Assembly (NCBI GenBank): GCA_016869175.1
Contig: VGEV01000003.1
Coordinates: 1-59,887 of the forward strand
Source: Alphaproteobacteria bacterium
Lineage (GTDB): Bacteria; Pseudomonadota; Alphaproteobacteria; GCA-2731375
Direction of reading: 5' to 3'
DNA: 59,887 bases
Made by a program: the position numbers and the translations under genes. Of this stretch, positions 1,963 to 59,835 are shown in pieces. How positions within the stretch are numbered: position 1 is the stretch's first letter; every line of letters starts with the position of its first letter. Under the pieces are notes generated by a model. That model did no database searches. It had not been told where the DNA came from and was given only the letters and a program-made list of their open reading frames with translations.

Positions 1963-1986
1963 CGTGATGGCAACGGGAGCGGAAGC

Positions 1987-2325: not shown

Positions 2326-2351
2326 CCGCCGGCCGGACCACGGAGCGCGAA

Positions 2352-3026
2352 ATGGCTTGGCTGTTGCTTGCCACGGCATTCTTCGTCGGCATTCACCTGC
2401 TGGTCGCCGGCACGCGGTTGCGCGATCGGCTGGTCGCGAATTTGGGCGAGGGTGCCTACCGGGGCCTGTTCTCACTTGCGTCGATCCTGGGCCTGGGGGC
2501 GATGGTCTGGAGCTACAACCGCGCGCCCTTCCTGCCGGTCTGGGATCTGGGGCCGGGTGCGCGGCATGCCGCGGCGCTGCTGCTGCTGCTGGGTTTCCTG
2601 CTGGCGGTGCCTGGGCTGACCACGCGCAACCCGACCGCGGTCGGTGCGGACAACGCGCTTCTCCGACCGCCGGCCGGCATCGTTGCGGTCACCCGACATC
2701 CTTTCCTTTGGGCCGTTCTGCTCTGGGCGGTGGGACATCTGTTGGCGAACGGTGATGCCGCTTCGATCGCGTTTTTCGGCGGCTTCCTGGTGCTCGCCCT
2801 GTTCGGGCCGTTCAGCATCGATGCCAAGAAGGCACGGCTGCGGCCGGACACTTGGCCGGCCTTCGTTGCTGCGACGTCCTGGCTGCCGTTCCAGGCCATT
2901 GCGCAAGGCCGGGCCCGGCTTGACTGGCGCGAGCTTGGCTGGTGGCGGCCGACGCTCGGCCTGCTGGCCTATCTCGCTTTCGTCTTCTACCTGCACGAAG
3001 CGTTGTTCGGCTTGCGGCCGATCTAG
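2352..3026 (+). CDS. NnrU family membrane protein
   Basis: Hydrophobic 224 aa with FVGIH, YRGLFSL, TRHPFLW, GHLLANGD and TSWLPF motifs typical of NnrU. Confidence 0.85.
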   Translation: MAWLLLATAFFVGIHLLVAGTRLRDRLVANLGEGAYRGLFSLASILGLGAMVWSYNRAPFLPVWDLGPGARHAAALLLLLGFLLAVPGLTTRNPTAVGADNALLRPPAGIVAVTRHPFLWAVLLWAVGHLLANGDAASIAFFGGFLVLALFGPFSIDAKKARLRPDTWPAFVAATSWLPFQAIAQGRARLDWRELGWWRPTLGLLAYLAFVFYLHEALFGLRPI

Positions 3027-3039
3027 CGGAATTCGTCCC

Positions 3040-3080
3040 TTGACTGGACAAGGGGCGGGCGATATTTAACGTTATGGTTA
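3040..3080 (+). promoter_or_regulatory. Promoter plus inverted-repeat operator overlapping the ArsR start codon
   Basis: TTGACT(3040-3045)-N17-TATTTA(3063-3068). Inverted repeat TAAC-N6-GTTA (3067-3080) spans ATG 3074. AT-rich island in GC-rich DNA; no SD sequence. Confidence 0.6.
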
Positions 3081-3427
3081 GATATCAGCAGCCGCTCGAC
3101 CGCACCTTCATCGCGCTCGCCGATCCGACCCGACGCGCCATCCTGGCGCGGTTGAGCCTGGGCCAGGCAACCGTGGGCGAGCTGGCGGCGCCATTCGCCA
3201 TGTCCTGGCCCGCGGTGACCAAGCATCTCGACGTGCTGGAGGGTGCGCGACTGATCGAACGCGAGCGGCGCGGGCGAGAGCGGCTTTGCCGGCTGCGACC
3301 GGTGGCATTGCGCGAGGCGGATGCCTGGCTGGAACCGTTCCGGCAGTTCTGGCAGGACGCGTTCGACAACCTGGCAAGGCATTTGGCGCAACCGAGCGGG
3401 GCGACCGAGGAGAGCGAGCATGGCTGA
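3074..3427 (+). CDS. ArsR/SmtB family transcriptional regulator
   Basis: ALADPTRRAIL...VGELAAPFAMSWPAVTKHLDVLEGARLI winged HTH. Confidence 0.93.
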   Translation: MVRYQQPLDRTFIALADPTRRAILARLSLGQATVGELAAPFAMSWPAVTKHLDVLEGARLIERERRGRERLCRLRPVALREADAWLEPFRQFWQDAFDNLARHLAQPSGATEESEHG

Positions 3428-3899
3428 AACCTCGGCGGTGCAGCCTGCATTGCTGCGTCTTGCCCGGCTGTTTCCGGTGAGCACCGATCGGCTTTTCCAG
3501 GCCCTGATGAACGAGGCCGAAGTGGCTGCCTGGCTGCACCCGGCCGGCATGACCTGCGCCGAGTGCCGTTGGCCGGCGCGGGTTGGCACGAATTGGCGCC
3601 TGGTGCTGGTCAACAGTGACGGCAGGCGCTTCCCGGTCGGCGGCCGATTCCTGGAGATCGTGCCCAGCCGACTCGTGCGCCTGACCTGGATTTGGGAAGA
3701 GCACGATTATGCCGGCATCGAGACGATCGCGACGCTGAGCGTCGAGCCGAAAGCCGAGGGCACTCTGCTGACCTTGGAACAGCAGGGACTGCCCGACGAG
3801 AAAGCCCGGCGCGCGCATGCGCAAGGCTTCGGCGCGTCGCTGGACAACCTGTCGCAACACGTGCGGTCGACCACGAGCAGGGAAGGAGCCAAGGCGTGA
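3420..3899 (+). CDS. SRPBCC (AHSA1/START-like) domain protein
   Basis: Overlaps the ArsR stop; RLFPVSTDRLFQA, GRFLEIVPSRLVRLTW and C-terminal HAQGFGASLDNL helix. Confidence 0.85.
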   Translation: MAETSAVQPALLRLARLFPVSTDRLFQALMNEAEVAAWLHPAGMTCAECRWPARVGTNWRLVLVNSDGRRFPVGGRFLEIVPSRLVRLTWIWEEHDYAGIETIATLSVEPKAEGTLLTLEQQGLPDEKARRAHAQGFGASLDNLSQHVRSTTSREGAKA

Positions 3900-6016: not shown

Positions 6017-7170
6017 TTGCGCAGGCGCGGACTGACCGGGGCGAAGTCGGCCAGGGCCTGGAACAACCGGTCGACGTCGCCGCGCGTGTTGTAGACATGC
6101 GGCGTCACGCGCAAGGCATCGCCCCGTTGGCTGACATGCACGCCGCGTTCGGCCAGCTTCGCGGCGGCGCCGTGCGGCAGGCCGCCCGGAAATCGCAGAC
6201 CGATATAGTGCGCCGCGCGGTAGCGCGCGGGATGGGAACGCAGCCCCATGGCGGCGCCGCGCTCGGCGATTTCCTCGGTCAGCGGGCGCAGCGTCCGGGC
6301 GATGTTGTCGATGCCCCAGTCCAGCAGTTGGCTGAGGCCGGCGCTGGCCACCGGCAACAGCGCGAAATTGGCGCATTCGCCGACATCGAAGCGCCGGGCC
6401 TCCACGGCAAAGGGCAGTTTGCGGCCGACCAGCCGCTCGAACGCCGGATCGACCGAGCGGGAGTAGTAATTGTACTCGAGGGGGACATCGTTTCGCCGGC
6501 GCGGCGCGACATAGAGGAAGCCGACCGAGTAGGGACCGAACAACCACTTGTAGCCGGCGCAGACCGCGTAGTCGGGATCGACTGCCGCCAGATCGAATGG
6601 CCAGGCGCCCAGCGTCTGAGTCAGATCCAGCACCAGCGCCGCCCCCACCTCGCGCGTGCGCCGGGCGACCGCCACCAGGTCCACCAACGTGCCGTCGGTC
6701 CAATGGCATTGCGGCAGCGCGACGATGGCGGTGCCGGGGGTGATGGCGGCCAGGATGGCCGGCGTCCAGTTGCCGTCCTCTGGCCAGTCGACCACGGTGA
6801 AAACGGCGCCCACCGCCTTGGCCTTGATCCGCCAAGGTTCGATATTGGAGGGAAATTCGTTCGCCATCACCACCACCTGCTGGCCCGGCAGCAGCGGCAG
6901 GTTGTTGGCGGCGATGGCGATGCCGTAGCTGGCCGAGGGCACCAGTGCGATGTCCTCGGCCTGGGCGCCGAGCAACTGGCCGAACAGCGCCCGCGCCCGT
7001 TCCGGGCCGTCCAGGAAATCCTTGCCAACCACCTGCCAGGGCCGGAGCTTGCGATCGATGCCCTCGCGCCCCGCCGCCGCCGCCGTCTTCAGCAGCGGCG
7101 ACAGGTAGGCGCAGTTGAGATAGGCAACGTCCGCCGGCAGGTCGAACAGGTGTCGCTGGCTTTCCAGCAT
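6013..7170 (-). CDS. Class V PLP-dependent enzyme (C-S lyase/isopenicillin epimerase-like)
   Basis: YLNCAYLSP, EFPSN, LDLTQTLG and AGYKWLFGP (PLP Lys); C-terminal LRVTPHVYN; no NifS/SufS catalytic Cys loop. Confidence 0.85.
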   Translation of the reverse strand: MLESQRHLFDLPADVAYLNCAYLSPLLKTAAAAGREGIDRKLRPWQVVGKDFLDGPERARALFGQLLGAQAEDIALVPSASYGIAIAANNLPLLPGQQVVVMANEFPSNIEPWRIKAKAVGAVFTVVDWPEDGNWTPAILAAITPGTAIVALPQCHWTDGTLVDLVAVARRTREVGAALVLDLTQTLGAWPFDLAAVDPDYAVCAGYKWLFGPYSVGFLYVAPRRRNDVPLEYNYYSRSVDPAFERLVGRKLPFAVEARRFDVGECANFALLPVASAGLSQLLDWGIDNIARTLRPLTEEIAERGAAMGLRSHPARYRAAHYIGLRFPGGLPHGAAAKLAERGVHVSQRGDALRVTPHVYNTRGDVDRLFQALADFAPVSPRLRN

Positions 7171-7171
7171 G

Positions 7172-8131
7172 TCAGCCGCCCGCCGCCGCCATGCCGGCAT
7201 TGATCCGCCAGACCGGCTTCAGCCAGTTCTGATAGGCCGGAAGCTGGCCGCGCGTGCAGGCATCGTAGGCATCATAGAGCCGTTGGGTCAGCGGGCCGAC
7301 GCCGCCGTTGCCGACCTTCATGCCGTCGACGTTGACGACCGGCGTCACCTCGTAGCCGGAGCCGCAGAGAAAGATCTCGTCGGCCGCGTAGAGTTCGCTG
7401 CGGTCGATCTCGCGTTCCTGCACCTTCTTGCCCAGTTCCTTCTCGAACAGCGTGATCATGCTGGCGCGGGTGATGCTTTCCAGAATGCCGTCGGTCACCG
7501 GCGCGGTCATCGGCACGCCGTCGCGCACCATCATGATGCAGGCGCCGGCGCTCTCCGCCACCTTGCCCGAAGGGGTCAGCAGGATCGCCTCGTCATAGCC
7601 GTCGCCGCGCGCCTGCAAGGTGGCGAGGCGGCCGTTATGGTAATTGGCGGCGCACTTGATGCGCGGCGGCATGCTGGCATCGTCGATCCGGCGCCAGGAG
7701 CTGACTTGCGCCTTCACGGTCTTGTCAGCCAGGCTCTTCTCGTGCCGGTTGACCACCAAGCAGCCAAGCGCCACCGGCCCGCGGCTGTCCAGAAAGCCCT
7801 CGCCCAGCACGTAGGCCGACAGACGGATGTGGCTGTCGTTGCGCATCTCGTTCTTGGTCAGCACGTCGAGCAGGATCTTCTCCATCTCGTCGTTGCTGTA
7901 GGACTGTTCCAGCCGCATCACGCGCATCGAATATTGCAGGCGGTCGAGATGCTCCTTCAGGCGAAACACGTTGACCTCGCCCGACTTCTTGTTGCGGTAA
8001 GCGCAGATCCCCTCGAACACGGTGGCGCCATACTTCACCGCGCAGGACAGGATGTGCACCTTGGCCTCGCGTTCCGGCACCATCTTGCCGTCGAAGTAGA
8101 TGTAGCTGCCAGTGGCGGCGAATTTGACCAT
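7172..8131 (-). CDS. Fold-type IV PLP aminotransferase (branched-chain amino acid transaminase-like)
   Basis: YGATVFEG, HLDRL, IKCAANY (PLP Lys), AESAGAC, LESITR and EIFLCGS motifs. Confidence 0.9.
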   Translation of the reverse strand: MVKFAATGSYIYFDGKMVPEREAKVHILSCAVKYGATVFEGICAYRNKKSGEVNVFRLKEHLDRLQYSMRVMRLEQSYSNDEMEKILLDVLTKNEMRNDSHIRLSAYVLGEGFLDSRGPVALGCLVVNRHEKSLADKTVKAQVSSWRRIDDASMPPRIKCAANYHNGRLATLQARGDGYDEAILLTPSGKVAESAGACIMMVRDGVPMTAPVTDGILESITRASMITLFEKELGKKVQEREIDRSELYAADEIFLCGSGYEVTPVVNVDGMKVGNGGVGPLTQRLYDAYDACTRGQLPAYQNWLKPVWRINAGMAAAGG

Positions 8132-8158
8132 CGGGTTCCTCCGTCGGTTCGGTCTTGC

Positions 8159-8905
8159 TCAGTGATTTTCCAGTAGCGGGCCGAAGCCATGCACCTTGTC
8201 GGCGATACCGTGCGCGCGCAGCGCGTGCCAATAGGTGGCCGTGTTGATCGCCATGACCGGCTTGCCGAACCAGCGCTCGGCCTCCACCGCCAGGCGCACC
8301 ATCGACAGGTTGGTGCCGACTTGCACGATCGCTTCCACCTTGTCGTCGTTGAGGCTGATCAGGTGCCGGCGCAGCGCGTCCTCCTGCACCTCGGCGATGT
8401 TGGTGGGCGAGGTGCAGCGCAGGCCAAGGAACTTCACCACATCAAAGCCGCAATCCTGGAAGAACTGGGTGACGTTCTTGTCGGAGATCGGCTGGTAGGG
8501 CGAGACCACCGCGATGCGCTTGACCCGGTAGAGATTGAGCGCGGCTTCCAGCGCGAACGACCCGGCCGAGACCCTGACCCCGCAATGCCGCTCCAGCGCC
8601 TGGCGGCGCTCCTCGGATGCCGCGCGGCCGCCCCAGAACATCAGCGCCGACATGCCCATGATCAGGTAGTCGGGCTCGCAGGTCATGCAGCGGTCGACGG
8701 CATGGTACAGTTCGCCCTCGATCACCTTGACGAGGCTGACGAACGTCTCGTCGTCGCGGATCGGCATGTTCGGCACATGGATGCGGCCATAATGGTTGGT
8801 CACCCCGGGCGGCCGCATGTCGTCCATGTCCGGCTGCACGATGGTATTGGTCGACGGCGCCACCACCGCGAATTTCGCCCGCCAGCCCAAGGCATCCTTC
8901 GCCAT
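8159..8905 (-). CDS. Maleate isomerase/arylmalonate decarboxylase (Asp/Glu racemase superfamily)-like protein
   Basis: PSTNTIVQ, RIAVVSPY, VGTNL and KPVMAINTATYW motifs. Confidence 0.85.
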   Translation of the reverse strand: MAKDALGWRAKFAVVAPSTNTIVQPDMDDMRPPGVTNHYGRIHVPNMPIRDDETFVSLVKVIEGELYHAVDRCMTCEPDYLIMGMSALMFWGGRAASEERRQALERHCGVRVSAGSFALEAALNLYRVKRIAVVSPYQPISDKNVTQFFQDCGFDVVKFLGLRCTSPTNIAEVQEDALRRHLISLNDDKVEAIVQVGTNLSMVRLAVEAERWFGKPVMAINTATYWHALRAHGIADKVHGFGPLLENH

Positions 8906-49296: not shown

Positions 49297-50271
49297 ATGA
49301 AGAAACGGGTGATGATCCAGATGCCGATCACCGCCGGCATCAAGTCGGTGTTCGATGCGCGGCCGGACATCGAATACGAGCGCTTCACCGAACTCTCCGA
49401 GGAGAATATCCGTCAGCATATCGGCAATTACGACGCCGCCATCCTGGGCGTGGTGCCGTTCAGCGCCCGCATCATCGAGGCCGCCAGCCGGCTGAAGATC
49501 GTCGCCCGCCATGGCGTCGGCTATGACAGCGTGGACGTGGCGGCGCTGACCAGGGTTGGCGTGCCGTTGGCTGTGGTCGGTATCGCCAATTCGGTGACGG
49601 TGGCCGAGCACTCGCTGTTCTTCATGCTGGCCTTAGCCAAGCGGGCGCGCGTCTACGATCGTGAGGTGCGCAAGGGCAACTGGAACATTCGCTTCGATCC
49701 CATCGCCTTCGATCTGGCCGGCCGCACGGTCTTGATCCTGGGCTTCGGGCGGATCGGCAGAAGGCTGGTCAAGCGCTGCGTCGCCATGGAAATGAACGTT
49801 CTGGTGCATGATCCCTATGTCATTCAGGATGCCATTCGCACCGCCGGCGCCACGCCGGTGGCGGATTGGCGCAAGCGCCTGCCGGAGGTCGACTTCGTCT
49901 CGGTCAATTGCCCGAAGACCAAGGAGACCGACGGCATGATCGGCCGGGCCGAGCTGGCGGCGATGAGGAAGACCGCCTTCGTCGTCAACACCGCGCGCGG
50001 CGGCATCGTGGACGAGGCGGCGCTCTACGACGCCTTGAAACGCAATGTCATCGCCGGCGCCGGGATCGACCCCTTCGTGGTCGAACCGGCCATGCCCGAT
50101 CTGCCGCTGTTCGAGCTCGACAACATCATCGTCAGCCCGCATTCGGCCGGGGTCACCGAGGAGAGCATGTTCCGCATGGGCACCGCCTCGGCGCAGAACG
50201 TCGTCGACTGCTTCGACGGCAAGCTCGACCCCGCCAATGTGATCAACCCGGAAGTGCTGACCAAGCGCTAG
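49297..50271 (+). CDS. D-isomer-specific 2-hydroxyacid dehydrogenase
   Basis: RHGVGYD, VAEH, GFGRIG, NTARG, D.F..EP and SPHSAG motifs. Confidence 0.93.
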   Translation: MKKRVMIQMPITAGIKSVFDARPDIEYERFTELSEENIRQHIGNYDAAILGVVPFSARIIEAASRLKIVARHGVGYDSVDVAALTRVGVPLAVVGIANSVTVAEHSLFFMLALAKRARVYDREVRKGNWNIRFDPIAFDLAGRTVLILGFGRIGRRLVKRCVAMEMNVLVHDPYVIQDAIRTAGATPVADWRKRLPEVDFVSVNCPKTKETDGMIGRAELAAMRKTAFVVNTARGGIVDEAALYDALKRNVIAGAGIDPFVVEPAMPDLPLFELDNIIVSPHSAGVTEESMFRMGTASAQNVVDCFDGKLDPANVINPEVLTKR

Positions 50272-50289
50272 CGAAGAAGCGAGAGAACG

Positions 50290-51069
50290 ATGAGCGTCAG
50301 CTACAAGGATATCGGCGTCAGCGCCCAGGGCCATGTCGGCATCGTGGAAATCCGCCGCCCGCCGCACAATTTCTTCGACAACTCGTTGATCAACCAGATC
50401 GCCGACGCGTTCGAGGCGTTCGACCGCGACGACAACTGCCGGGCCAAGGTGCTGTGCGCCGAAGGCAAGTCGTTCTGCGCCGGCGCCGACTTCGCCAATC
50501 GGCCGGAGACCGGCAGCGCCACTTCGGAGACCGGCAAGCATCTCTACAAGGAAGCAACGCGCCTGTTCCGCTCGACCAAGCCCATCGTGGCGGCGGTGCA
50601 GGGGCCGGCGATCGGCGGCGGGCTTGGCCTCGCGGTGATGGCGGACTTCCGCGTGACCTGCCCGGAAGCCCGCTTCAGCGCCAATTTCAGCCGGCTGGCG
50701 TTCCATCCGGGCTTCGCACTGACCTTCACGCTGCCGCGTCTCGTCGGTCAGCAGAAGGCGGCGCTGTTGTTCTATACCGGCCGGCGCATCGACGGGGAGG
50801 AGGCGGTCAAGATCGGACTGGCCGACATGCTGGTGCCGATCGGCGAAGTGCGCCCGGCGGCGATCGGGCTGGCGGCCGAGATCGCGCAATCCGGGCCGCT
50901 CGCCGTCCGCTCGATGCGCGAGACCTTGCGCCGGGGCTTCGCGGATGCGGCCGAGGCGGCGACCGAGCGCGAACTGATGGAGCAGGAGTGGCAGCGCCGT
51001 ACCGAGGATTTCCGCGAGGGCGTGAAGGCGATGGACGAACGGCGCACGCCGCGCTTCGTCGGCCGCTGA
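50290..51069 (+). CDS. Enoyl-CoA hydratase/isomerase (crotonase) family protein
   Basis: FCAGADF, KPIVAAVQGPAIGGG and EDFREGVKA motifs. Confidence 0.92.
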   Translation: MSVSYKDIGVSAQGHVGIVEIRRPPHNFFDNSLINQIADAFEAFDRDDNCRAKVLCAEGKSFCAGADFANRPETGSATSETGKHLYKEATRLFRSTKPIVAAVQGPAIGGGLGLAVMADFRVTCPEARFSANFSRLAFHPGFALTFTLPRLVGQQKAALLFYTGRRIDGEEAVKIGLADMLVPIGEVRPAAIGLAAEIAQSGPLAVRSMRETLRRGFADAAEAATERELMEQEWQRRTEDFREGVKAMDERRTPRFVGR

Positions 51070-51081
51070 GGGCTTGCCCCC

Positions 51082-51978
51082 ATGAAGCTCGGCTACATGC
51101 TGCCGCTGATCGATGTCGGCGGCGATCCGGCGGTGGTGCGCGAACTGGCGCAGACCGCGGAAGGGCTCGGCTACGATCACCTGGGCGCGCCGGATCACGT
51201 GCTGGGCGTCAATGCCGTCAGCCGGCCCAACTGGGGCGCCCGCAACACCTCGCGCGATCTGTTCCACGATCCCTTCGTGCTGTTTGGCTACTTGAGCGCC
51301 TGCACCACCCGCATCGGTTTCTCGACGCAAGTGCTGATCCTGCCGCAGCGGCAGGCCGCGCTGGTGGCGAAGCAGGCGGCTTGCGTCGACCTGCTGTCGG
51401 GCGGGCGTTTGCGTCTGGGCATCGGCGTCGGCTGGAACGAGGCCGAGTATGTCGCGCTCAACGAGAACTTCCGCAACCGCGGCCGCCGCTCCGAGGAACA
51501 GGTGGCGGTCATGCGCGAACTGTGGGCCGCTCCGCATGTCGATTTCCAGGGCGAATGGCACCGCATTCCCGACGCCGGCATCAATCCCCGGCCGGCGGCG
51601 GGCCGCATCCCGCTCTGGTATGGCGGGCACGAGGACGTGACGCTCAGGCGTATCGCCAAATGGGGCGATGGTTGGATCATGCTGGCGCACCCGCCGGGCG
51701 AGGCGGCGAGCGCCGCCCTCGACCGGCTGCACGACTACACGCGCCAGGCCGGACGCGATCCCGCGGAGGTCGGTTTCGAGGTCTGGGTCTCCATGGGCAT
51801 CGGCAACGAGGCCAACTGGCGCGCCGAGGCGGAGGCCTGGAAGCGGCTCGGCGTCACCCATCTCACGCTCAACAACTGGTTCGGCCGCTATCACCACCGC
51901 CGCATCTCGGAACGTTCGCTGAAGGCGCATTTGTCCAGCCTGGGCCGCTACCGCGCGGTCGTCGCCGACCTCTTGTAG
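51082..51978 (+). CDS. Luciferase-like (LLM) oxidoreductase, probable F420-dependent type
   Basis: PDHVLG, HDPFVLFGYL, ILPQRQAALVAKQAA..D.LSGGRLRLGIGVGWN..EY motifs. Confidence 0.85.
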   Translation: MKLGYMLPLIDVGGDPAVVRELAQTAEGLGYDHLGAPDHVLGVNAVSRPNWGARNTSRDLFHDPFVLFGYLSACTTRIGFSTQVLILPQRQAALVAKQAACVDLLSGGRLRLGIGVGWNEAEYVALNENFRNRGRRSEEQVAVMRELWAAPHVDFQGEWHRIPDAGINPRPAAGRIPLWYGGHEDVTLRRIAKWGDGWIMLAHPPGEAASAALDRLHDYTRQAGRDPAEVGFEVWVSMGIGNEANWRAEAEAWKRLGVTHLTLNNWFGRYHHRRISERSLKAHLSSLGRYRAVVADLL

Positions 51979-52062
51979 CCAGCCCACCCGGTTCACCGGA
52001 AGTTGCTTGGACCGACGCCGGCGTCGGGCGGGACAGTAGCCTGGCGCAAAGAGGGCGGCGGA

Positions 52063-53454
52063 ATGCGGCGACTTCAGCGATGGCGTGCTGCGTGTCTGGG
52101 CGTGCTGCTGCTGTCTTGGTTGGCGCCGGCCGGGGCCACCGAACTGGCCGAGGACGAACTGGCTGATGCGGGTCTGGCGCTGATCTTCGCCGACGCCGAG
52201 ACCCGCGCGGCAGCCAGCAAGGACCTGGTCAGCCGCGGCAAACCGGACGTCGTGGCGCATTTCATCCTGGCCATGCGCTTCACGCAAGTCGAGGACGAGC
52301 GCTTTGGCGCGGCGCTGCGGGCGCTGACTGGGTATCGCGGTACCACCTGGTTCGATTGGATGCTGTGGCAGGAAAGTCGCCCGGACATTCGGCCGCATCC
52401 GAGCTTCGCCTCGATGCTGATCGCGCTGATGACGCGGATCGATCCGCGTTTCGAGGGTTTTCTTGCCCCCTTTCTGCATGAGCCCGGCCGGCAGCGGGTC
52501 CGGCTGGAAGAAGTGGTCTGGGGCGGCGTTCCGGTGGACGGCATCCCGCCGCTCGACCGGCCGAAGCGGATCGCCGCGGCCGAGGCCGGCTATCTCGCCG
52601 ACGACGATCTGGTGTTCGGCCTGGCGATTGCCGGCGATACGCGGGTCTATCCGCTGCGCATCATGGGCTGGCACGAAATGCTCAACGACGTGGTGGGCGG
52701 CCAACCGGTGTCGCTCGCCTATTGCACGCTCTGCGGCGCCGGCATCCTCTACGACACACGCCAGCCGGGCGACGCGGCGGCGATGGAGTTCTCCACCTCC
52801 GGGTTGCTCTACCGTTCCAACAAGCTGATGTACGACCGCAAGACGCGTTCGCTGTGGAACCAGTTCAGCGGCGAGCCGGTCTCTGGCCCGCTTGCCGATA
52901 GCGGCCTGCGCTTGCGCCAACTGCCGCTCACCATCGCCAGTTGGGCGGATTGGCGCACACGCCATCCGGGCACGACGGTGCTGTCGCTCGATACCGGGCA
53001 TCGACGCGACTACGGCTCCGGCGTCGTTTACCGCGATTATTTCGCCAGCCCAGGCCTGATGTTTCCGGCCGCCGTTGACGAGACGCGGCTGAAGCCCAAG
53101 GACCAGGTGTTCGTGATGAGCGAACCCGGTGCGTGGCGCGCCTGGCCGCTGTCAGCCTTCAACGACCCGCCGGTGCTGAACGATGCCATCGGCCAACGCG
53201 AAGTGGTGCTGATCGGCGAGGCGGCAACCCGCACGGTCCGGGCCTACGAACGTGCCGGCCAGCGTTTCGTCAAGGCCGACGGCGCCATGGCGCTGCGGGC
53301 GGGCGACGGCACAGGCTGGCGGATCGAGGAGGAGTTCCTGCAAGGCCCGGGCGGCCAGCGCCTGCCCAGGCTGCCCGGCCATGTGGCCTACTGGTTCGCC
53401 TGGGACAACTACTTTGGCGCCCAGGGCACGCTCTATCCCGACCCGCCTCGTTAG
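52063..53454 (+). CDS. Exported DUF3179 domain protein
   Basis: Signal peptide; WGGV..DGIPPL, HEMLND, YCTLCG, SGLLYRSNKLMYD..T.SLWNQ and YWFAW motifs. Confidence 0.85.
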   Translation: MRRLQRWRAACLGVLLLSWLAPAGATELAEDELADAGLALIFADAETRAAASKDLVSRGKPDVVAHFILAMRFTQVEDERFGAALRALTGYRGTTWFDWMLWQESRPDIRPHPSFASMLIALMTRIDPRFEGFLAPFLHEPGRQRVRLEEVVWGGVPVDGIPPLDRPKRIAAAEAGYLADDDLVFGLAIAGDTRVYPLRIMGWHEMLNDVVGGQPVSLAYCTLCGAGILYDTRQPGDAAAMEFSTSGLLYRSNKLMYDRKTRSLWNQFSGEPVSGPLADSGLRLRQLPLTIASWADWRTRHPGTTVLSLDTGHRRDYGSGVVYRDYFASPGLMFPAAVDETRLKPKDQVFVMSEPGAWRAWPLSAFNDPPVLNDAIGQREVVLIGEAATRTVRAYERAGQRFVKADGAMALRAGDGTGWRIEEEFLQGPGGQRLPRLPGHVAYWFAWDNYFGAQGTLYPDPPR

Positions 53455-55064
53455 GGTACCTTTCCCAAGATCAGGTCCGCCGCCTTCTCGGCGATCATCA
53501 GGGTCGAGGCGTTGGTATTGGCCGAGGGCATGTTGGGCATGATCGAGGCATCCACCACCCGCAAGCCTGCGATGCCCTTGACCCGCAACCGGTCGTCCAC
53601 CACCGCGGTCGGGTCGCTGTCGGGACCCATGCGGCAACTGCCCATGGGATGGAAGGCCGTCGAGCCATAGCGCATGGCGAAGTCGAGCAGTTGGTCATCG
53701 CTCTCGGCCTGCGCGCCCGGCAACTCCTCCCGCTCGAAAAACCCGGACAGCGCCGGCGAGGTCAGCAGGCGGCGGCACCAGCGCACGCCCGCCGCCGTGA
53801 CCTGGCGGTCGAGGGGGTGCGACAGGTAGTTGGGCTGTACTTGCGGTAGGTCGAACGGGTCGCGCGATCGCGCGCGCACCCAGCCGACGCTCTCCGGTCG
53901 CTCCTGGAACACCCCGCAGGTCATACCCGGGAAATCGTCCAGCACGCCGATCGCGCCGGCACGGAAGCTGGCGGGGGTGAAGACGAATTGCAGGTCGGGC
54001 GCGTCCAGCGCTTCGTTGGATTTCCAGAACACATGCACCAGCGAGGGACTGAGGCCGAGAATGCTCGGCCGGCCGATCGCCCAATTGAAGATCTCGAACA
54101 GCAGCCGCGGTCCGCGCGCCCGCTGGTTGATGGAATCGACCCCCCTGATACGCGCCACCATGCGCGCCGCGTAGTGGTCGCGCAGGTTCTCCCCCACCCC
54201 TGGCAGTTCGTGCCGCACCTCGACGCCGATCTCGCGCAAGAGCTTGGCCGGGCCGATGCCGGAAAGCTGCAACAGCTTGGGCGAGTTGAGCGTGCCGCCC
54301 GAGACAATCACCTCAGCCCTTGCCCGCACCTCGCGCTGGCCCGACAGGCTGCGGCCCGTGGCGTGCCGCACGCCGACCGCGCGCTTGCCGTCCAGCAGGA
54401 TGGCGGTCGCGTGCGCCTGGGTGCGCACCTCGATGGTGCCGCGTGCGAGGGCCGGCCGCAGGAAGGCCTTGGCCGAACTCTGCCGGCGGCCCCGGGCGAT
54501 GTTGCGCTGGAAATAGCCGACACCCGCCTGTTCGCCGCTGTTGTGGTCGGCGCAGCGCGGAATGCCCAGTTGCTGCGCGCCCGCGATGAAGGCCTCGCAG
54601 ACCGGGTGCAGCCAGTCGATGTCGGTGATGGGGGTGGGGCCGTCGCGGCCGCGCACCCGCTCCTCGCCGGCGCCGATGCGCGCCTCCGAGCGCTTGAAGT
54701 AGGGCAGCACATCGCTCCAGCCCCAGCCGCGGTTGCCGGCCTGCGCCCAGGCGTCGAAATCCATCGGCTGGCCGCGGTTATAGATCATGCCGTTAATCGA
54801 ACTGGAGCCGCCGAGCGTGCGCCCTTGCGGAAACGTCACCTGCCGGCCGGCCAGGCCGGGCCCGGCCTCGGTGGTGATCTGATAGGTGTAGGTCGGATTG
54901 TGGAACAGCTTGATGAAGCCGGCCGGCATGTCGATGTAGATCGAGCGGTCGGGTGGCCCGGCCTCAAGCAGGCAGACCGTCGTTCTGCCGTCGGCGCTCA
55001 GTCGGTTGGCCAACACGCAGCCAGCCGAACCGGCGCCGACGATGACGAAGTCGAACTCGTCCAT
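53451..55064 (-). CDS. GMC oxidoreductase
   Basis: IVGAGSAGC, GRTLGGSSSING, GENLRDH, FHPMGSC, RVVDASIMP and ANTNAS motifs. Confidence 0.93.
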   Translation of the reverse strand: MDEFDFVIVGAGSAGCVLANRLSADGRTTVCLLEAGPPDRSIYIDMPAGFIKLFHNPTYTYQITTEAGPGLAGRQVTFPQGRTLGGSSSINGMIYNRGQPMDFDAWAQAGNRGWGWSDVLPYFKRSEARIGAGEERVRGRDGPTPITDIDWLHPVCEAFIAGAQQLGIPRCADHNSGEQAGVGYFQRNIARGRRQSSAKAFLRPALARGTIEVRTQAHATAILLDGKRAVGVRHATGRSLSGQREVRARAEVIVSGGTLNSPKLLQLSGIGPAKLLREIGVEVRHELPGVGENLRDHYAARMVARIRGVDSINQRARGPRLLFEIFNWAIGRPSILGLSPSLVHVFWKSNEALDAPDLQFVFTPASFRAGAIGVLDDFPGMTCGVFQERPESVGWVRARSRDPFDLPQVQPNYLSHPLDRQVTAAGVRWCRRLLTSPALSGFFEREELPGAQAESDDQLLDFAMRYGSTAFHPMGSCRMGPDSDPTAVVDDRLRVKGIAGLRVVDASIMPNMPSANTNASTLMIAEKAADLILGKVP

Positions 55065-55083: not shown

Positions 55084-55112
55084 TTCGATGCCCAGCGATA
55101 CTACGCTAAGCT
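55084..55112 (+). promoter_or_regulatory. Candidate promoter for the glutaredoxin-DinB/cnbZ-like pair
   Basis: TTCGAT-N17-TAAGCT, 19 nt upstream of ATG 55132. Confidence 0.3.
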
Positions 55113-55131
55113 GGCGCCAGCGAGGGCGAGC

Positions 55132-55893
55132 ATGAGCGAACAGATCGCGGTCTTCTGGCAGCCGCACTGAACGAGCTGCCTGAGGGTCAAGGAATACCTC
55201 TCGGTCCGTGGGATCGGGTTCCGCTCGGTGAATGTGCTGGAGGATGCCGCCGGTCGCGAGGAACTGGCGGCGTTGGGCGCGCGTTCGGTTCCGGTGGTGG
55301 CACGCGACGGCCGCTTTGTGTTCGCGCAAATGTTGCAGGACGTGGTGGAATTTCTCGCGCTGCCCGACGATACCGGGCCGACGCTGAGCCCGGCGGAACT
55401 GGCGAGCCGGTTCGATGCCATCTTGGCGGTCGCGGTGCGGTTGTCGGGCCAGATGCCCGACCGGTTTCTCGAGAACCAGTTGCCGAACCGGCCGCGTTCG
55501 TGGCGGGTGCTGCTGCACCACGTCTTCCAGATCGCCGACAGTTTCCTCGACTGCCGAGCGATGGATCGCCCGTTGCGCTACGAGGACCTGGTGGCGCCGC
55601 CGCCGGAGGAGATGCGCAGCGCCGCTGCCATCGCTGTCCATGGGGCGGCGGTGCGGCAGCGTTTCGCGGCGTGGTGGGCGGGGGCCGCCGCCGCCGACTT
55701 CGGCCGGCGGGTCGAGGGGTATTTCGGCCATACCAGCTTGCACGAAATGCTGGAACGCACGGTCTGGCACGCAACCCAGCATGTGCGGCAGGTGGACACG
55801 CTGTTGCGCCAGGTGGGGGTGGCGCCGGCCGCGGCGTTGACGCCCGCGCTGCTGGCGGGCCTGCCGTTGCCGCAGAAGGTGTGGGACGAATGA
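55132..55893 (+). CDS. Probable selenoprotein: glutaredoxin-like (UxxC) domain fused to DinB-like domain, 253 aa
   Basis: ATG 55132 after GAGGG reads MSEQIAVFWQPH-TGA-TSCLRVKEYL, in frame with ORF 55228..55893. Grx cis-Pro motif RSVPVV; DinB-like LLHHVF and WHATQH His pattern. Confidence 0.78.
55180..55204 (+). promoter_or_regulatory. Candidate bacterial SECIS hairpin
   Basis: CUGAGGGU pairs with ACC(U)CUCGG around loop CAAGGAAU, starting 9 nt after the UGA; folded by eye only. Confidence 0.4.
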
Positions 55894-55903: not shown

Positions 55904-56656
55904 ATGAGCGCCGCCCCGATCTTCGCGGGCGGCGGCTATCGCTACGTTCCAGGGGTCTTCCAGTATTCGGGCGGCGTCGCGGCCGAGCCGGGCTTCGCCA
56001 TCCGACGGGTGCGTTTCCGGCGGCTAGTGCCGATGGCCCAGGGCTTCGGCGTCGTCGCCGCGCAGCTTGCCGCCGCCGGCCGGCCGACAACCGCGTTTTG
56101 CGCCTGCGAGCTGCGCTCGCCCGCGCAGTTCAGCGAAGCCGGCTTCCGCGCCTTCAACGAGCACTACGTCAAGACGCTGGCCGAATGGGGCCTCTACGAC
56201 GGCAAGCTCAATCCGGTGGCGCGCAGCAATGTCTGCCCGGAAGCGGGCGCGCCGAGCGAACCCTGCTTCCACGCCTTCTGTTTCACCGTCGTCCAGCCCA
56301 ATTCGCCCGCCTCCTTCGTCGTCGCGGGCAGCGGCGAGGCGCCGGAGGGCAAGGAAAACTATCGTGACCATATCGTTTGCCGGGGCGATCTCAGCCCGGC
56401 TGGCCTGCGCCAGAAGGCGCGGTTCGTGCTGGGCGAGATGGAACGGCGGATGGCGGCGCTGGGCTTCGCCTGGGCCGACTGCACGGGCACGCAGGCCTAC
56501 ACGGTGCACGACCTGCATCCCTTCCTAGCCAACGAGATCGTGGCGCGCGGCGCGGCGGCGCAGGGCCTGACCTGGCACTATTGCCGCCCGCCGGTGGTCG
56601 ACCTCGAGTTCGAGATGGACTGCCGCGGCGTCGCGCGCGAGGACGTGCTGGCTTAG
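55904..56656 (+). CDS. CnbZ-like (2-amino-5-chloromuconate deaminase family) protein
   Basis: GGYRY.PGVFQYSGGVAAEPGF, CELRSP, NPVARSNVCP and RPPV.DLEFEMD match my recollection of Comamonas CnbZ. Confidence 0.75.
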   Translation: MSAAPIFAGGGYRYVPGVFQYSGGVAAEPGFAIRRVRFRRLVPMAQGFGVVAAQLAAAGRPTTAFCACELRSPAQFSEAGFRAFNEHYVKTLAEWGLYDGKLNPVARSNVCPEAGAPSEPCFHAFCFTVVQPNSPASFVVAGSGEAPEGKENYRDHIVCRGDLSPAGLRQKARFVLGEMERRMAALGFAWADCTGTQAYTVHDLHPFLANEIVARGAAAQGLTWHYCRPPVVDLEFEMDCRGVAREDVLA

Positions 56657-58945: not shown

Positions 58946-59835
58946 AGCATGATTCCTTTATTCTGAAGCGTATCCTGAGTTTCTGAAGTAGTTGGCGTAT
59001 TCCTGGGGCGTGAAGGCCTTGAGGAGCTGGCCGATGCCGCGCCATGTGGCTTCGATGGTGCGGGCATCGAGCTTGCGCAGGAGGGTCTTGAGCTTGGCGA
59101 AGGGCTGTTCGATGGGGTTGAGGTCGGGCGAGTAGGCGGGGAGGAACAGGAGCTTGGCGCCGACCGCGCGGATGGCGCGCCGGATCGCCTGCCGCTTGTG
59201 GCTGCCGAGGTTGTCCATGACGACCACATCGCCGGGCCGCAGGGTTGGGACGAGCATCTGCTGGACGTAGGCCAGGAAACTGCGGCGGTTGATCGGCCCA
59301 TCGATGACGCAGGGCGCTTCGATCCGATCCCAGCGCAAGGCAGCCAGGAAGGTGAGGGTGTGCCAGCGCCCATGCGGGAGCTTGGCCACCAGCCGATCGC
59401 CGCAGCGGCAGCGGCCGTGCCGGCGCGTCATGTTCGTCTTGGCCCAGGCCTCGTCGATGAAGACCAAGCGTCGGGGGTCAATCCGCCCCTGATACTTCTT
59501 CCACTGCGCCCGCCGGCGCGCCACGTCGGGCCGGTCCTGTTCGGTGGCGTGCAGGCTTTTTTTGAACGTCAGCCGCTCCACCCGAAGGAAGTGCCAGATC
59601 GCCTTCAGGCTCACCCGCATGCCGCGGTCCGAGAGTTCGCCTTGGATCGCCCGCAGCGTCAGGTCGGGCCGCACCGCCAGTCGCTCCAGCAGCCAAGCGC
59701 GCTCACCCGCCAGCCGCAGCGGCCGGTTCCGCCAACCCATCGGCGAAGCTGCCGCACTCCTAGTCCGACGCTTGCGCTGCGACCACCTCACAACGCTCGC
59801 AACACTCACCTCAAACAGACGCGCAGTCTCTCGGC
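58945..59835 (-). mobile_element. IS630-family insertion sequence (left part displaced by a second IS)
   Basis: End sequence TA|GAGCATGATTCC directly after a TA dinucleotide in CTAG context; carries a DDE transposase; cut at 59835. Confidence 0.85.
58958..59835 (-). pseudogene. IS630 transposase, 5'-interrupted
   Basis: RETARLFEVSVASVVRW HTH; FIDE, MDNLGSHK and LPAYSPDLNPIE DDE triad. The first ~20 codons expected for this family are replaced by the IS3-type end. Confidence 0.85.

What the first reader, a model, noticed from the sequence alone, without database searches (positions are those of the whole stretch)
55132..55893. Hidden selenoprotein candidate: UxxC glutaredoxin fused to a DinB-like metal/thiol-transferase domain
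Seen: an RBS-preceded ATG at 55132 gives MSEQIAVFWQPH*TSCLRVKEYLSVRGIGFRSVNV. The only internal stop is TGA (55168-55170, codon 13), exactly where the attacking Cys of a glutaredoxin CxxC lies: after beta-strand 1, before the helix CxxxKxxL, with the cis-Pro motif SVP downstream. The ORF track starts only at 55228 and loses the active site. The C-terminal half has the DinB/YfiT-like His pattern (LLHH...WHATQH). Established: UGA aligned to a redox CxxC Cys is the standard signature of bacterial selenoproteins, and DinB-fold proteins include thiol S-transferases and thiol-dependent isomerases. Inference: one polypeptide coupling a selenol redox centre to a thiol-conjugating domain. I do not know of a characterised example, and His just before Sec is unusual. 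Caveat: TGC/TGT to TGA is one substitution, and this window holds two real pseudogenes.
Basis: partly seen in the sequence, partly recalled or inferred. Interest (0 to 1): 0.88.

Follow-up and report, generated by a model that had tools for sequence, protein, structure and literature searches.

The report
Conserved glutaredoxin–DinB fusion selenoprotein
The "stop" codon near the start of this gene is almost certainly read as selenocysteine, which makes it a real and widespread two-domain selenoprotein that gene callers routinely truncate and whose biochemical job is still unknown.

Summary
The gene is ATG 55132 to stop 55891-55893 (253 codons) with one in-frame TGA at codon 13 (55168-55170), in a U-T-S-C motif of a Pfam glutaredoxin domain. 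The C-terminal half has a DinB/YfiT fold with an invariant three-His site.

- **Conservation of the TGA:** it sits at the same aligned codon in all 109 homologous loci read (103 distinct sequences, 42-66% identity, many proteobacterial lineages).
- **Translation across it:** the peptide upstream (VFWQP) is kept while its codons vary synonymously.
- **Cys homologues:** full-length forms with Cys at that codon exist.
- **Sec machinery:** the genome carries selA, selB, tRNA-Sec and selD.
- **SECIS candidate:** a hairpin 30 nt after the TGA (55200-55218, GUG loop) shows frozen synonymous sites and compensatory changes.

A pseudogene or a sequencing error is excluded.

No NCBIfam model reaches its cut-off. 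Nothing I could search in the literature describes a DinB-containing selenoprotein. It may still be hidden under generic "Grx" or "Grx-like" families in metagenome surveys.

The function is inferred, not shown: a selenol/thiol redox centre working with a metal-dependent thiol-transferase-like domain, perhaps on electrophiles.

The parts
55122..55126 (+). Shine-Dalgarno-like GAGGG, 5 nt before the ATG
   Evidence: Read directly from the sequence. Purine-rich stretches stand at the same place in homologues.
55132..55893 (+). Full coding sequence of the Grx-DinB selenoprotein: 253 codons plus the TGA stop, with one internal UGA read as Sec
   Evidence: The start at M-x-x-x-I-[KR]-V-F-W-Q-P is conserved in homologues.
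55168..55170 (+). In-frame TGA, codon 13: the proposed selenocysteine, first residue of U-T-S-C
   Evidence: TGA at this aligned codon in 109 of 109 rows, 103 distinct. Cys stands here in full-length homologues P0006, P0034, P0041, P0080, P0089, P0090, P0093 and P0106.
55177..55179 (+). Cys16 codon (TGC), the resolving Cys of the UxxC motif
   Evidence: Cys in 109 of 109 rows, coded by TGC 51 and TGT 58.
55200..55218 (+). SECIS-like hairpin CUCGGUCC-GUG-GGAUCGGG: 8 bp with a GUG triloop, its base 30 nt after the UGA
   Evidence: 86.7% of cells pair on A1, with 44:52 as CG 19 / UA 8, and 92.9% on A3. The effective codon number of codons 24-28 is 1.0-1.2, against 1.3-3.7 for the other degenerate codons. 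105 of 109 rows fold into the centred hairpin; the window's copy has -9.2 kcal/mol.
55144..55320 (+). Glutaredoxin/NrdH-like thioredoxin-fold domain, residues 5-63
   Evidence: Pfam PF00462 at E 1.1e-11. PDB profile hit 7c10_A Glutaredoxin at E 2.9e-11. Fold matches 3zit_A (TMt 0.89) and 7c10_A (0.85).
55291..55293 (+). Pro54 codon, in the S-V-P motif at the cis-Pro position of the thioredoxin fold
   Evidence: Invariant in 47 of 47 sequences of A2. Its identity as the cis-Pro is inferred from its position before strand 55-58 of the model.
55390..55812 (+). DinB/YfiT-like four-helix-bundle domain, residues 87-227 of the model
   Evidence: Foldseek matches 6iz2_A (TMt 0.82), 2p1a_B (0.75) and 1rxq_A YfiT (0.65). 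Pfam DinB_2 matches residues 104-221 at E 6.9e-4, below the cut-off for this copy, but 42 of 47 family members match at E <= 0.001.
55519..55521 (+). His130 codon, first His of the putative metal triad
   Evidence: Invariant in A2. The neighbouring H129 is not invariant (Y or F in some).
55768..55782 (+). H213-A-T-Q-H217: the HxxxH pair of the putative metal triad, within invariant W212, H213, Q216, H217, R219 and Q220
   Evidence: Invariant columns of A2.

Best explanation
Window 55132-55893 (+) encodes one 253-residue selenoprotein.

**How it is made.** UGA at codon 13 (55168-55170) is decoded as selenocysteine by the genome's own SelA/SelB/tRNA-Sec/SelD system. A short hairpin within the coding sequence (55200-55218, GUG loop) directs the insertion.

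**Architecture.**
- The N-terminal 80 residues are a glutaredoxin/NrdH-like thioredoxin fold. Its active site is Sec13-Thr-Ser-Cys16 at the start of helix 1, with Pro54 at the cis-Pro position.
- The C-terminal 170 residues are a DinB/YfiT-type four-helix bundle. It has an invariant His130/His213/His217 site of the kind that binds a divalent metal in DinB-fold thiol transferases.

**Shown.** The recoding, the two folds, the conserved residues and the wide distribution.

**Inferred.** The selenol/thiol pair cycles between selenolate and selenenyl-sulfide. It acts on, or regenerates, a thiol-linked substrate held at the metal site of the DinB domain. That would make a self-contained, GST-like 'thioredoxin fold plus helical domain' enzyme for electrophile or disulfide chemistry. 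The exact substrate is unknown.
For: **Recoding**
- TGA stands at the same codon in 29 of 29 full-length copies in the window's genome and relatives, at 42-65% identity.
- It also stands there in 80 of 80 best loci of 599 relatives found in species genomes.
- Codons 7-11 upstream keep V, F, W, Q and P in 106-109 of 109 rows. They do so while using 4, 2, 1, 2 and 4 different codons.
- Eight full-length table-11 gene calls carry Cys at this position.
- Among the 120 best database hits listed, most calls are N-terminally cut, with scattered lengths of 213-240 aa. So no conserved internal start exists.

**Machinery**
- selA, selB, tRNA-Sec and selD all lie on C80.
- 28 of 31 TGA-carrying genomes have a strong SelA, against 7 of the 30 others.
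- In 7 of 80 loci, selA and selB follow 94-406 nt downstream on the same strand.

**SECIS**
- The hairpin pairs in 86.7% and 92.9% of cells, and no shuffle reaches the observed score.
- There are compensatory changes, for example 44:52 as CG 19 / UA 8.
- Codons 24-28 (S, V, R, G, I) are almost frozen at synonymous sites. For example, CGT is used for Arg in 100 of 103 sequences.

**Folds**
- The AF2 model has pLDDT 89.4 and pTM 0.72.
- Foldseek gives DinB/YfiT and Grx/NrdH-like hits.
- Pfam supports both domains, and the His triad is invariant.

**Weak functional hint**
- An Old-Yellow-Enzyme flavin reductase lies directly upstream on the same strand in 14-16 of the relatives' loci, all in one genus group. 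It is also adjacent in 3 unrelated loci of the 80.
Against: - No selenium incorporation has been measured.
- The 65 nt after the UGA do not fold better than shuffles (z = -0.45). The minimum-energy fold of that stretch is a different structure.
- RNAalifold kept only 4 pairs of the hairpin.
- The hairpin starts 30 nt after the UGA. By my recollection of the published bacterial SECIS model, that is at the far end of what is allowed.
- Three relatives (L010, L012, L013) lack this hairpin and have another one upstream.
- No Rfam family matches.
- Three TGA carriers show no SelA: G013 (96% complete), G024 (94%) and G042 (77%).
- This copy's own DinB_2 score (20.5 bits) is below Pfam's cut-off of 24.8.
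- The gene neighbourhood is not conserved across the family. So cooperation of the two domains, and any substrate, are unsupported by direct evidence.
Confidence: 0.85

Rival explanations
1. The TGA is a nonsense mutation or a sequencing error in an ordinary CxxC glutaredoxin-DinB gene, which would make this copy a pseudogene.
For: TGC or TGT to TGA is a single substitution. Cys forms of the family exist.
Against: TGA stands at the same codon in 109 of 109 rows from independent assemblies of many lineages, with 103 distinct sequences and 0 TGC/TGT. There are no other stops or frameshifts in any full-length copy. Both sides of the TGA are under purifying selection.
Confidence: 0.01
2. The TGA is a true stop. 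A 12-residue leader peptide is made, and the functional protein starts downstream (for example at GTG 55228). It would lack the redox motif and be in effect a DinB protein with a crippled thioredoxin fold.
For: This is what the mechanical ORF list and most public gene calls give: 221 aa here, 213-240 aa elsewhere.
Against: - The called starts differ from record to record, at 213, 219-222, 231 and 235-240 aa, so there is no conserved start.
- The upstream peptide and the U-[TS]-S-C motif are conserved at the protein level with synonymous variation.
- Cys forms are continuous, full-length proteins.
- Pfam Glutaredoxin aligns from residue 5, across the TGA.
- The gene co-occurs with selA and is linked to it.
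Confidence: 0.03
3. The UGA is read through, but not (or not only) as Sec. It might be read as Cys or Trp by near-cognate or SelB-delivered Cys-tRNA-Sec when selenium is scarce, so the working protein is often the CxxC form.
For: Cys forms are evidently functional in other lineages. Three TGA carriers had no detectable SelA, though their assemblies are 77-96% complete. That Cys can be inserted at UGA under selenium limitation is my recollection of work in other bacteria, not a result here.
Against: A full sel gene set is present in this genome. 28 of 31 carriers have SelA. Long-term retention of TGA and of a constrained hairpin would be pointless if Cys were the intended residue.
Confidence: 0.08
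4. It is a selenoprotein, but the two domains do not cooperate chemically. The DinB domain would be a docking or regulatory module, and the Grx domain would be a general disulfide reductase like NrdH or Grx.
For: The Grx domain on its own resembles stand-alone redoxins: 7c10_A at E 2.9e-11 and NrdH 1h75_A at 1.5e-6. No conserved partner gene was found.
Against: The fusion is kept in every one of the 109 loci, with an invariant His triad and a block of invariant polar residues in the DinB domain: R120, R122, E208, R209, W212, Q216, R219 and Q220. That pattern looks like an active site, not a docking surface. pTM 0.72 suggests a defined mutual arrangement.
Confidence: 0.2

Closest known systems
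Selenoprotein glutaredoxin (Grx, PF00462, UxxC), as listed in the prokaryotic selenoprotein reviews (PMC13188914 and PMC9312934, tables read as passages). Its Cys homologue is cGrx1 (PDB 7c10).
   Same: Both have a thioredoxin fold with Sec as the first residue of UxxC at the N-terminus of helix 1. 7c10_A is the best PDB sequence match (E 2.9e-11) and a fold match (TMt 0.85).
   Different: Those proteins are single-domain, about 80 residues long. Passages read from the 2006 survey (PMC1794560) list glutaredoxin selenoproteins for Geobacter, Alkaliphilus and Moorella. This protein carries a 170-residue DinB domain, has the motif H-U-T-S-C and occurs in Alpha-, Beta- and Gammaproteobacteria-labelled genomes.
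DinB/YfiT-fold proteins (PF12867, PF05163): YfiT of B. subtilis (1rxq), DR0053 of D. radiodurans (6iz2) and BCE_2162 (2p1a). From my own knowledge, the superfamily includes bacillithiol and mycothiol S-transferases, the N-domain of mycothiol-dependent maleylpyruvate isomerase, and the iron-binding N-domain of EgtB.
   Same: Both have the four-helix bundle (TMt 0.82, 0.75 and 0.65). The H...HxxxH triad is conserved. One family member also matches MDMPI_N at E 4.1e-5.
   Different: The solved ones I matched have no fused thioredoxin-fold domain and no Sec. No two-domain match exists among the PDB hits. They use a free low-molecular-weight thiol. Here a protein-borne selenol/thiol pair is tethered to the domain.
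Glutathione S-transferases and E. coli Grx2 (a thioredoxin-fold N-domain plus a helical C-domain)
   Same: The overall logic is the same: a thioredoxin-fold domain followed by an all-helical domain in one chain. Foldseek lists many GSTs and Grx2 at E 6e-4 to 1e-2.
   Different: The whole-chain superpositions are poor, with rmsd 10-16 A and TM 0.25-0.36. The helical domain here is a DinB bundle with a His3 site, not the GST C-domain. Pfam GST_N_3 scores only E 0.028, below its cut-off. This is an analogy of design, not membership.
UXX-star glutaredoxin-like selenoprotein families of NCBIfam (NF041212, NF041114, NF041211, NF047338)
   Same: They are Grx-like selenoproteins with Sec in a Uxx motif. 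There are weak hits to the N-domain: NF041212 at E 1.6e-6, 28.3 bits.
   Different: All are far below their cut-offs (28.3 against 66, 19.6 against 97, 14.2 against 100, 12.1 against 72). In those families the Uxx motif is at the C-terminus, as their name says. Here the motif is N-terminal UxxC.

Membership tests
Bacterial selenoprotein (SelB/SECIS-dependent UGA recoding) | In-frame UGA conserved at one aligned codon in orthologues | tested here: met
   109 of 109 rows, 103 distinct.
Bacterial selenoprotein (SelB/SECIS-dependent UGA recoding) | Cys-containing homologues aligned to the UGA | tested here: met
   Eight full-length 252-aa homologues have Cys at that position. They come from table-11 gene calls, which cannot read through a TGA.
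Bacterial selenoprotein (SelB/SECIS-dependent UGA recoding) | Coding conservation continues upstream of the UGA in the same frame | tested here: met
   Codons 7-11 keep their amino acids in 106-109 of 109 rows while using up to 4 synonymous codons.
Bacterial selenoprotein (SelB/SECIS-dependent UGA recoding) | Stem-loop (bacterial SECIS) shortly downstream of the UGA with a G/U-containing small apical loop | tested here: inconclusive
   For: a hairpin at 55200-55218 with a GUG loop is conserved, shows compensatory changes and has frozen synonymous sites. Against: it is absent in 3 relatives, it is not the MFE fold of the 65-nt stretch (z = -0.45), there is no Rfam model, and bSECISearch was not available. 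The spacing and loop rules are recalled, not tested.
Bacterial selenoprotein (SelB/SECIS-dependent UGA recoding) | selA, selB, selC (tRNA-Sec) and selD in the same genome | tested here: met
   On contig C80: selA at 538-1644 (514 bits), selB at 1699-3591 (402 bits, cut-off 242), tRNA-SeC at 6407-6501, and selD at 7700-8614 (263 bits, cut-off 125).
Bacterial selenoprotein (SelB/SECIS-dependent UGA recoding) | Selenium actually incorporated (75Se labelling or mass spectrometry) | not testable with these tools
   This needs an experiment.
Glutaredoxin / NrdH-like thioredoxin fold (PF00462) | Pfam model above the gathering score | tested here: met
   45.1 bits against 22.9, over residues 5-63 with Sec read as Cys. 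37 of 47 family members match; the others are N-terminally cut calls.
Glutaredoxin / NrdH-like thioredoxin fold (PF00462) | C/UxxC at the N-terminus of helix 1, a cis-Pro before strand 3, and the thioredoxin fold | tested here: met
   U13-x-x-C16 stands before helix 14-25. P54 is invariant before strand 55-58. Fold matches are 3zit_A (TMt 0.89) and 7c10_A (0.85).
Glutaredoxin / NrdH-like thioredoxin fold (PF00462) | Reductant specificity: glutathione-binding residues of Grx, or reduction by thioredoxin reductase as in NrdH | not tested
   All NCBIfam Grx and NrdH equivalogs are far below their cut-offs, for example NrdH at 34.9 against 85.75.
DinB superfamily (PF12867 DinB_2 / PF05163 DinB) | Pfam model above the gathering score | tested here: inconclusive
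   This copy scores 20.5 bits against a cut-off of 24.8 for DinB_2, and 16.4 against 23 for DinB. Across the family, 42 of 47 members match DinB_2 at E <= 0.001, best 6.1e-9.
DinB superfamily (PF12867 DinB_2 / PF05163 DinB) | Four-helix bundle of DinB/YfiT topology | tested here: met
   6iz2_A: TMt 0.82, rmsd 3.7 over 154 columns. 2p1a_B: 0.75. 1rxq_A: 0.65. The model has pLDDT 89.4.
DinB superfamily (PF12867 DinB_2 / PF05163 DinB) | Conserved His triad (H ... HxxxH) that binds a divalent metal | tested here: met
   H130, H213 and H217 are invariant in 47 of 47 sequences. Metal binding itself is not testable here, and the triad's role is recalled from the family's literature.
UXX-star Grx-like selenoproteins (NF041212 and relatives) | NCBIfam model above its cut-off | tested here: not met
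   28.3 against 66, 19.6 against 97, 14.2 against 100, and 12.1 against 72.
Glutathione S-transferase | GST N- and C-domain models or a good whole-chain superposition | tested here: not met
   GST_N_3 scores E 0.028, below its cut-off. Whole-chain rmsd is 10-16 A and TM is 0.25-0.36.

The most novel reading that the evidence does not exclude
The tethered Sec13 selenolate replaces the free low-molecular-weight thiol (bacillithiol, mycothiol, cysteine or glutathione) that other DinB-fold enzymes activate at their His3-metal site. The protein would then carry its own 'cofactor'. The selenolate, positioned at or ligated to the metal, adds to an electrophile or an activated C=C bond, as in thiol-dependent maleylpyruvate isomerases or S-transferases. 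Cys16 then resolves the adduct. This would be the first cofactor-independent, selenium-based DinB enzyme. It could be the main reason why this group of aerobic Proteobacteria keeps the Sec machinery, since this genome shows no Sec-type formate dehydrogenase.
Probability: 0.15. Interest if true: 0.85.

Novelty: new variant of a known kind. Interest (0 to 1): 0.62.

Why it matters
**Annotation.** Relatives of this gene were found in at least 599 species-level genomes, and the 80 best of them all carry the TGA. Gene callers routinely cut it off at its active site: public calls are 213-240 aa and are named hypothetical, DinB, or NrdH-redoxin partial. Recognising the family would repair many annotations. 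It would also add a family that neither NCBIfam 20.0 nor the 2022 and 2026 reviews I searched list.

**Biology.** It is a selenoprotein of Alpha-, Beta- and Gammaproteobacteria-labelled genomes. An early survey (PMC1794560, passage read) called formate dehydrogenase the only selenoprotein in the Sec-decoding Alpha- and Betaproteobacteria and Pseudomonadales it examined. This genome keeps the sel genes without a Sec-type FdhA.

**Enzymology.** A selenol redox centre tethered to a DinB metal site is an untested design. It could reveal a new way of doing thiol-transferase, reductase or isomerase chemistry.

Tried and rejected
- **Thermodynamic test of the SECIS.** The 65 nt from the UGA fold no better than shuffles (z = -0.45), and the MFE fold is another structure. 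I therefore relied on comparative evidence.
- **RNAalifold on 29 sequences.** It kept only 4 pairs, with a consensus energy of -1.76 kcal/mol.
- **A first hairpin nearer the UGA.** GGGU/ACCU (columns 23-26 with 35-38), and CUCC/GGAG in one genus, is not kept across lineages. I rejected it as the common element. In L010, L012 and L013 a different hairpin (GAAAGA-GUU-UCUUUC) may serve instead.
- **Rfam scan of 55100-55320.** There was no relevant match.
- **Conserved operon.** The window's neighbours are a GMC oxidoreductase, a CnbZ-like deaminase and an SGL lactonase.
  - The CnbZ-like and SGL genes were not found beside any homologue.
  - A GMC homologue lies near the gene in 3 of the 29 other loci from the genome search of relatives (all one genus) and 1 of 80.
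  - SDR, amidase and luciferase-like genes recur only in 10-16 of 80 loci, in mixed orientations.
- **Sec-type formate dehydrogenase in this genome.** None is above the cut-off and there are no in-frame stops.
- **The glycosyltransferase on C80.** I suspected that the glycosyltransferase between selB and tRNA-Sec might be a selenosugar synthase. NCBIfam calls it a PEP-CTERM/XrtA system glycosyltransferase (525.7 bits against 442), so I dropped the idea.
- **Phylum-wide sample.** Only 1 of 250 other genomes has the gene, and it carries a TGA. The family is therefore patchy, not universal.
- **Literature searches.** These found no description:
  - selenoprotein + DinB + glutaredoxin: 2 papers, the one listed irrelevant
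  - selenocysteine + DinB-like: 0
  - DinB + glutaredoxin domain + fusion: nothing relevant among the 15 listed
  - NrdH + selenoprotein: 9, none relevant by title
  - DinB superfamily + selenium: 1, irrelevant
- **Term searches inside papers.** 'DinB' occurs 0 times in PMC2398784, PMC13188914, PMC12013277, PMC13326102, PMC9312934, PMC1794560 and PMC5029168. In PMC1088965 I searched only 'Grx' and 'glutaredoxin' and read its section 8; neither shows a second domain.
- **What I could not check in print.** The supplements of these papers were closed, and figures are not held. So I cannot exclude that the 'Glutaredoxin' family of the Sargasso Sea survey (10 sequences) or the 'Grx-like' family of the GOS survey (42 sequences) is this family under a generic name.
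- **Model geometry.** I could not read the coordinates of the model, so the Sec-to-His-triad distance is unknown.
- **Not used.** I did not use complex prediction, sequencing runs or reads.
Full report
**Observation.** GAGGG (55122-55126) precedes ATG 55132. The frame gives MSEQIAVFWQPH, then TGA at 55168-55170 (codon 13), then TSCLRVKEYL... and runs open to TGA 55891-55893. The mechanical ORF list starts this frame only at GTG 55228, giving 221 aa. With the TGA read as a residue the product has 253 residues. Pfam Glutaredoxin matches residues 5-63, across the TGA, at E 1.1e-11 (45.1 bits, cut-off 22.9). DinB_2 matches residues 104-221 weakly (E 6.9e-4, 20.5 bits, below the cut-off of 24.8). 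No NCBIfam model reaches its cut-off. The nearest are generic Grx/NrdH models and the UXX-star selenoprotein models, all far below threshold.

**Is the TGA conserved?** I searched 61 genomes, the window's own and 60 relatives, with the read-through protein.
- This gave 29 full-length matches at 42-100% identity, each with exactly one TGA inside. Two partial matches also had the TGA. One copy was cut by a contig end before codon 26.
- Extracting and translating them showed the TGA at the same aligned codon in 29 of 29. The motif is FWQP[H/G/A]-U-[T/S]-S-C-L.
The best 80 loci carry Alpha-, Beta- and Gammaproteobacteria labels, plus single Acidimicrobiales and Planctomycetota labels.
- All 80 have TGA at that codon. 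The motifs are FWQPHUTSCL in 76, YWQPHUTSCL in 2 and FWQPHUTSCI in 2.
- Together that makes 109 rows, of which 103 are distinct. At least six of the 80 look identical, in the 81-nt stretch, to loci already fetched from relatives. None has TGC or TGT.
- In an even sample of the phylum, only 1 of 250 other genomes has the gene, again with TGA. The family is patchy, but it is common in the window's own family, where 30 of 32 genomes match.

**Is it translated across the TGA?** Codons 7-11 upstream encode V, F, W, Q and P in 106-109 of 109 rows. They use 4, 2, 1, 2 and 4 different codons. That is purifying selection on a peptide that would be pointless if translation began after the TGA.
- Public gene calls for relatives are mostly cut at the N-terminus, with scattered lengths (213, 219-222, 231, 235-240 aa). 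So there is no conserved internal start.
- Eight relatives of 252 aa are continuous and carry Cys at the position: FWQPHCTSC in P0006 and FWQPWCTSC in seven others.
- These come from table-11 gene calls, which cannot read through a TGA. They are therefore true Cys forms, the classic Sec/Cys pair.

**Machinery.** Contig C80 of the same genome holds all four genes.

| Gene | Position on C80 | Score |
|---|---|---|
| selA | 538-1644 | E 2.2e-154 |
| selB | 1699-3591 | 402 bits, cut-off 242 |
| tRNA-SeC (anticodon tca) | 6407-6501 | found by ARAGORN |
| selD | 7700-8614 | 263 bits, cut-off 125 |

- Across the 61 genomes, 28 of the 31 that show the TGA copy have a strong SelA. The exceptions are G013, G024 and G042, at 96, 94 and 77% completeness.
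- 7 of the other 30 genomes also have a strong SelA. Relatives are not independent, so this is a consistency check and not a statistic.
- In 7 of the 80 loci, selA follows 94-406 nt downstream on the same strand, with selB behind it (L051, L054, L055, L069, L104, L105, L118). L093 also has selB.

**SECIS.** In the nucleotide alignments (A1 with 29 rows, A3 with 81 rows) a hairpin stands 30 nt after the UGA. In the window it is CUCGGUCC-GUG-GGAUCGGG at 55200-55218.
- On A1, 86.7% of cells pair. No shuffle of 500 reaches the observed pairing or covariation. Slid registers reach at most 61.6%. Pair 44:52 is C-G in 19 rows and U-A in 8.
- On A3, 92.9% of cells pair, with further compensatory cells.
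- The strongest signal is at synonymous sites. Codons 24-28 (S, V, R, G, I) have an effective codon number of 1.0-1.2: TCG 90 of 92, GTC 74 of 74, CGT 100 of 103, GGG 68 of 71 and ATC 80 of 84. The other degenerate codons between 5 and 39 show 1.3-3.7.
- The Cys forms vary in just these residues (AGRGV, SGRGI, SSRGV, SSREV). This suggests the freeze in the Sec forms is imposed by RNA and not by the protein.
- 105 of 109 rows fold into the centred hairpin when the 19 nt are folded alone, at -4.2 to -10.7 kcal/mol; the window's copy has -9.2.
- Against this reading:
  - Three relatives (L010, L012, L013) lack the hairpin and carry another stem upstream.
  - The 65-nt stretch as a whole is not unusually stable (z = -0.45).
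  - RNAalifold keeps only four pairs.
  - Rfam has no match.
  - The stem lies far from the UGA by the published bacterial SECIS rules as I recall them.
- I therefore call it the likely SECIS, not a proven one.

**Architecture.** An alignment of 47 family members (A2) shows these invariant residues: P54, R120, R122, H130, Y197, G199, E208, R209, W212, H213, Q216, H217, R219 and Q220. H129 varies.
- AlphaFold2 on this alignment gives pLDDT 89.4 and pTM 0.72. The N-terminal part runs beta-alpha-beta-alpha-beta-beta-alpha, with the UxxC before helix 14-25, and a helical bundle follows.
- Foldseek matches the C-terminal part to DinB/YfiT proteins: 6iz2_A (TMt 0.82), 2p1a_B (0.75) and 1rxq_A YfiT (0.65).
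- It matches the N-terminal part to small redoxins: 3zit_A (0.89) and 7c10_A cGrx1 (0.85). No solved chain covers both domains.
- GST and Grx2 chains appear only with rmsd 10-16 A.
- A profile search of PDB sequences hits only the N-domain, best 7c10_A at E 2.9e-11.
- DinB_2 is matched by 42 of 47 family members, and MDMPI_N by one.

**Function.** This part is inference.
- From general knowledge of the families, a UxxC or CxxC thioredoxin-fold centre does selenol/thiol-disulfide exchange. DinB-fold enzymes use a His3-bound metal to activate a low-molecular-weight thiol for conjugation or isomerisation.
- The strict fusion and the invariant polar cluster in the DinB domain argue that both halves are catalytic.
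- Gene context gives only hints.
  - In this window the gene lies between a divergent GMC oxidoreductase (53451-55064) and a CnbZ-type 2-amino-5-chloromuconate deaminase. The deaminase starts 11 nt downstream (55904-56656; NF049982, 401 bits against 220).
  - The CnbZ-like gene is not found beside any homologue, and a GMC homologue lies nearby in only 3 of the relatives' loci and 1 of the 80.
  - In one genus group an Old-Yellow-Enzyme flavin reductase (PF00724) ends just before the gene in 14-16 loci.
  - A homologue of that reductase is adjacent in 3 unrelated loci of the 80: L114, L121 and L099.
- These hints fit an electrophile, enone or quinone theme but do not establish it.

**Comparison with what is known.** UxxC glutaredoxin selenoproteins are an established kind (tables of PMC13188914 and PMC9312934, read as passages).
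- The Sargasso Sea and GOS surveys list 'Glutaredoxin' (10 sequences) and 'Grx-like' (42 sequences) UxxC families from marine metagenomes (PMC1088965 and PMC2398784, passages and one section read).
- I could not see their sequences, figures or supplements. This family may already have been counted there under a generic name.
- Nothing I could search mentions a DinB domain in any selenoprotein (term searches).
- NCBIfam 20.0 has no model for it. I therefore rate it a new variant of a known kind.

**Verdict.** The selenoprotein interpretation is supported at about 0.9. The pseudogene and sequencing-error readings are excluded. The mechanism beyond 'selenol/thiol redox centre fused to a DinB metal site' is open. 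Interest is moderate to high for selenoprotein and redox enzymology, and for genome annotation.

Noticed in passing
window 55904-56656 (+): The 250-aa gene that starts 11 nt after the selenoprotein's stop has no Pfam family. It matches NCBIfam NF049982, CnbZ 2-amino-5-chloromuconate deaminase, at 401 bits against a cut-off of 220. It is not found next to any of the other 109 homologous loci (29 from the search of relatives, 80 from the species collection).
   Followed up: partly
own genome, contig C80:1-8719 (loci L033, L041): selA, selB, tRNA-Sec and selD lie on one contig. SelD is fused to an N-terminal pyridine nucleotide-disulfide oxidoreductase domain: TIGR03169 Nterm_to_SelD at 442 bits against 310, plus TIGR00476 at 260 bits. 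The longest open frame (6278-8719) overlaps the tRNA-Sec gene (6407-6501), so the true start must lie downstream of it. A PEP-CTERM/XrtA-type glycosyltransferase sits between selB and tRNA-Sec.
   Followed up: partly
own genome (whole): No formate dehydrogenase alpha subunit reaches the TIGR01553 cut-off, and none of the 10 weaker matches has an in-frame stop. The Sec machinery of this genome therefore seems to be kept for other selenoproteins. The rest of its selenoproteome was not surveyed.
   Followed up: no
loci L051, L054, L055, L069, L104, L105, L118 (and L093): In these genomes (mostly Hyphomicrobiaceae or Filomicrobium labels, one Magnetovibrio) the Grx-DinB gene lies directly upstream of selA-selB on the same strand, with gaps of 94-406 nt.
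   Followed up: partly
loci L015-L031 (genus group g6/g2), L114, L121, L099: An Old-Yellow-Enzyme NADH:flavin oxidoreductase (PF00724, E 1.4e-67) ends just before the Grx-DinB gene in one genus group. A homologue is adjacent in three unrelated lineages.
   Followed up: partly
relatives G003, G009, G013 (L010, L012, L013): These three copies (motif FWRPGUTSC) lack the common hairpin. They carry a different 6-bp stem, GAAAGA-GUU-UCUUUC, about 18 nt after the UGA. G013 also shows no strong SelA.
   Followed up: no
family f1 genomes: Two subtypes coexist in the window's taxonomic family. One is an H-U type, 59-65% identical to the window's copy, whose closest relatives carry Gammaproteobacteria labels. 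The other is a G-U type at 46-51% identity. One genome of the G-U genus (G016) carries the H-U type, which suggests transfer or replacement.
   Followed up: no
window 58958-59809 (-) and 49633-53001 (-): A DDE_3 transposase (E 3e-30) lies near the window's end. A 1122-aa ORF has no Pfam family at E <= 0.001.
   Followed up: no
own genome C164:1315-1518 (+): A stand-alone glutaredoxin-like ORF (34% identity to residues 1-68, no stop inside) is the only other match to the protein in this genome.
   Followed up: no
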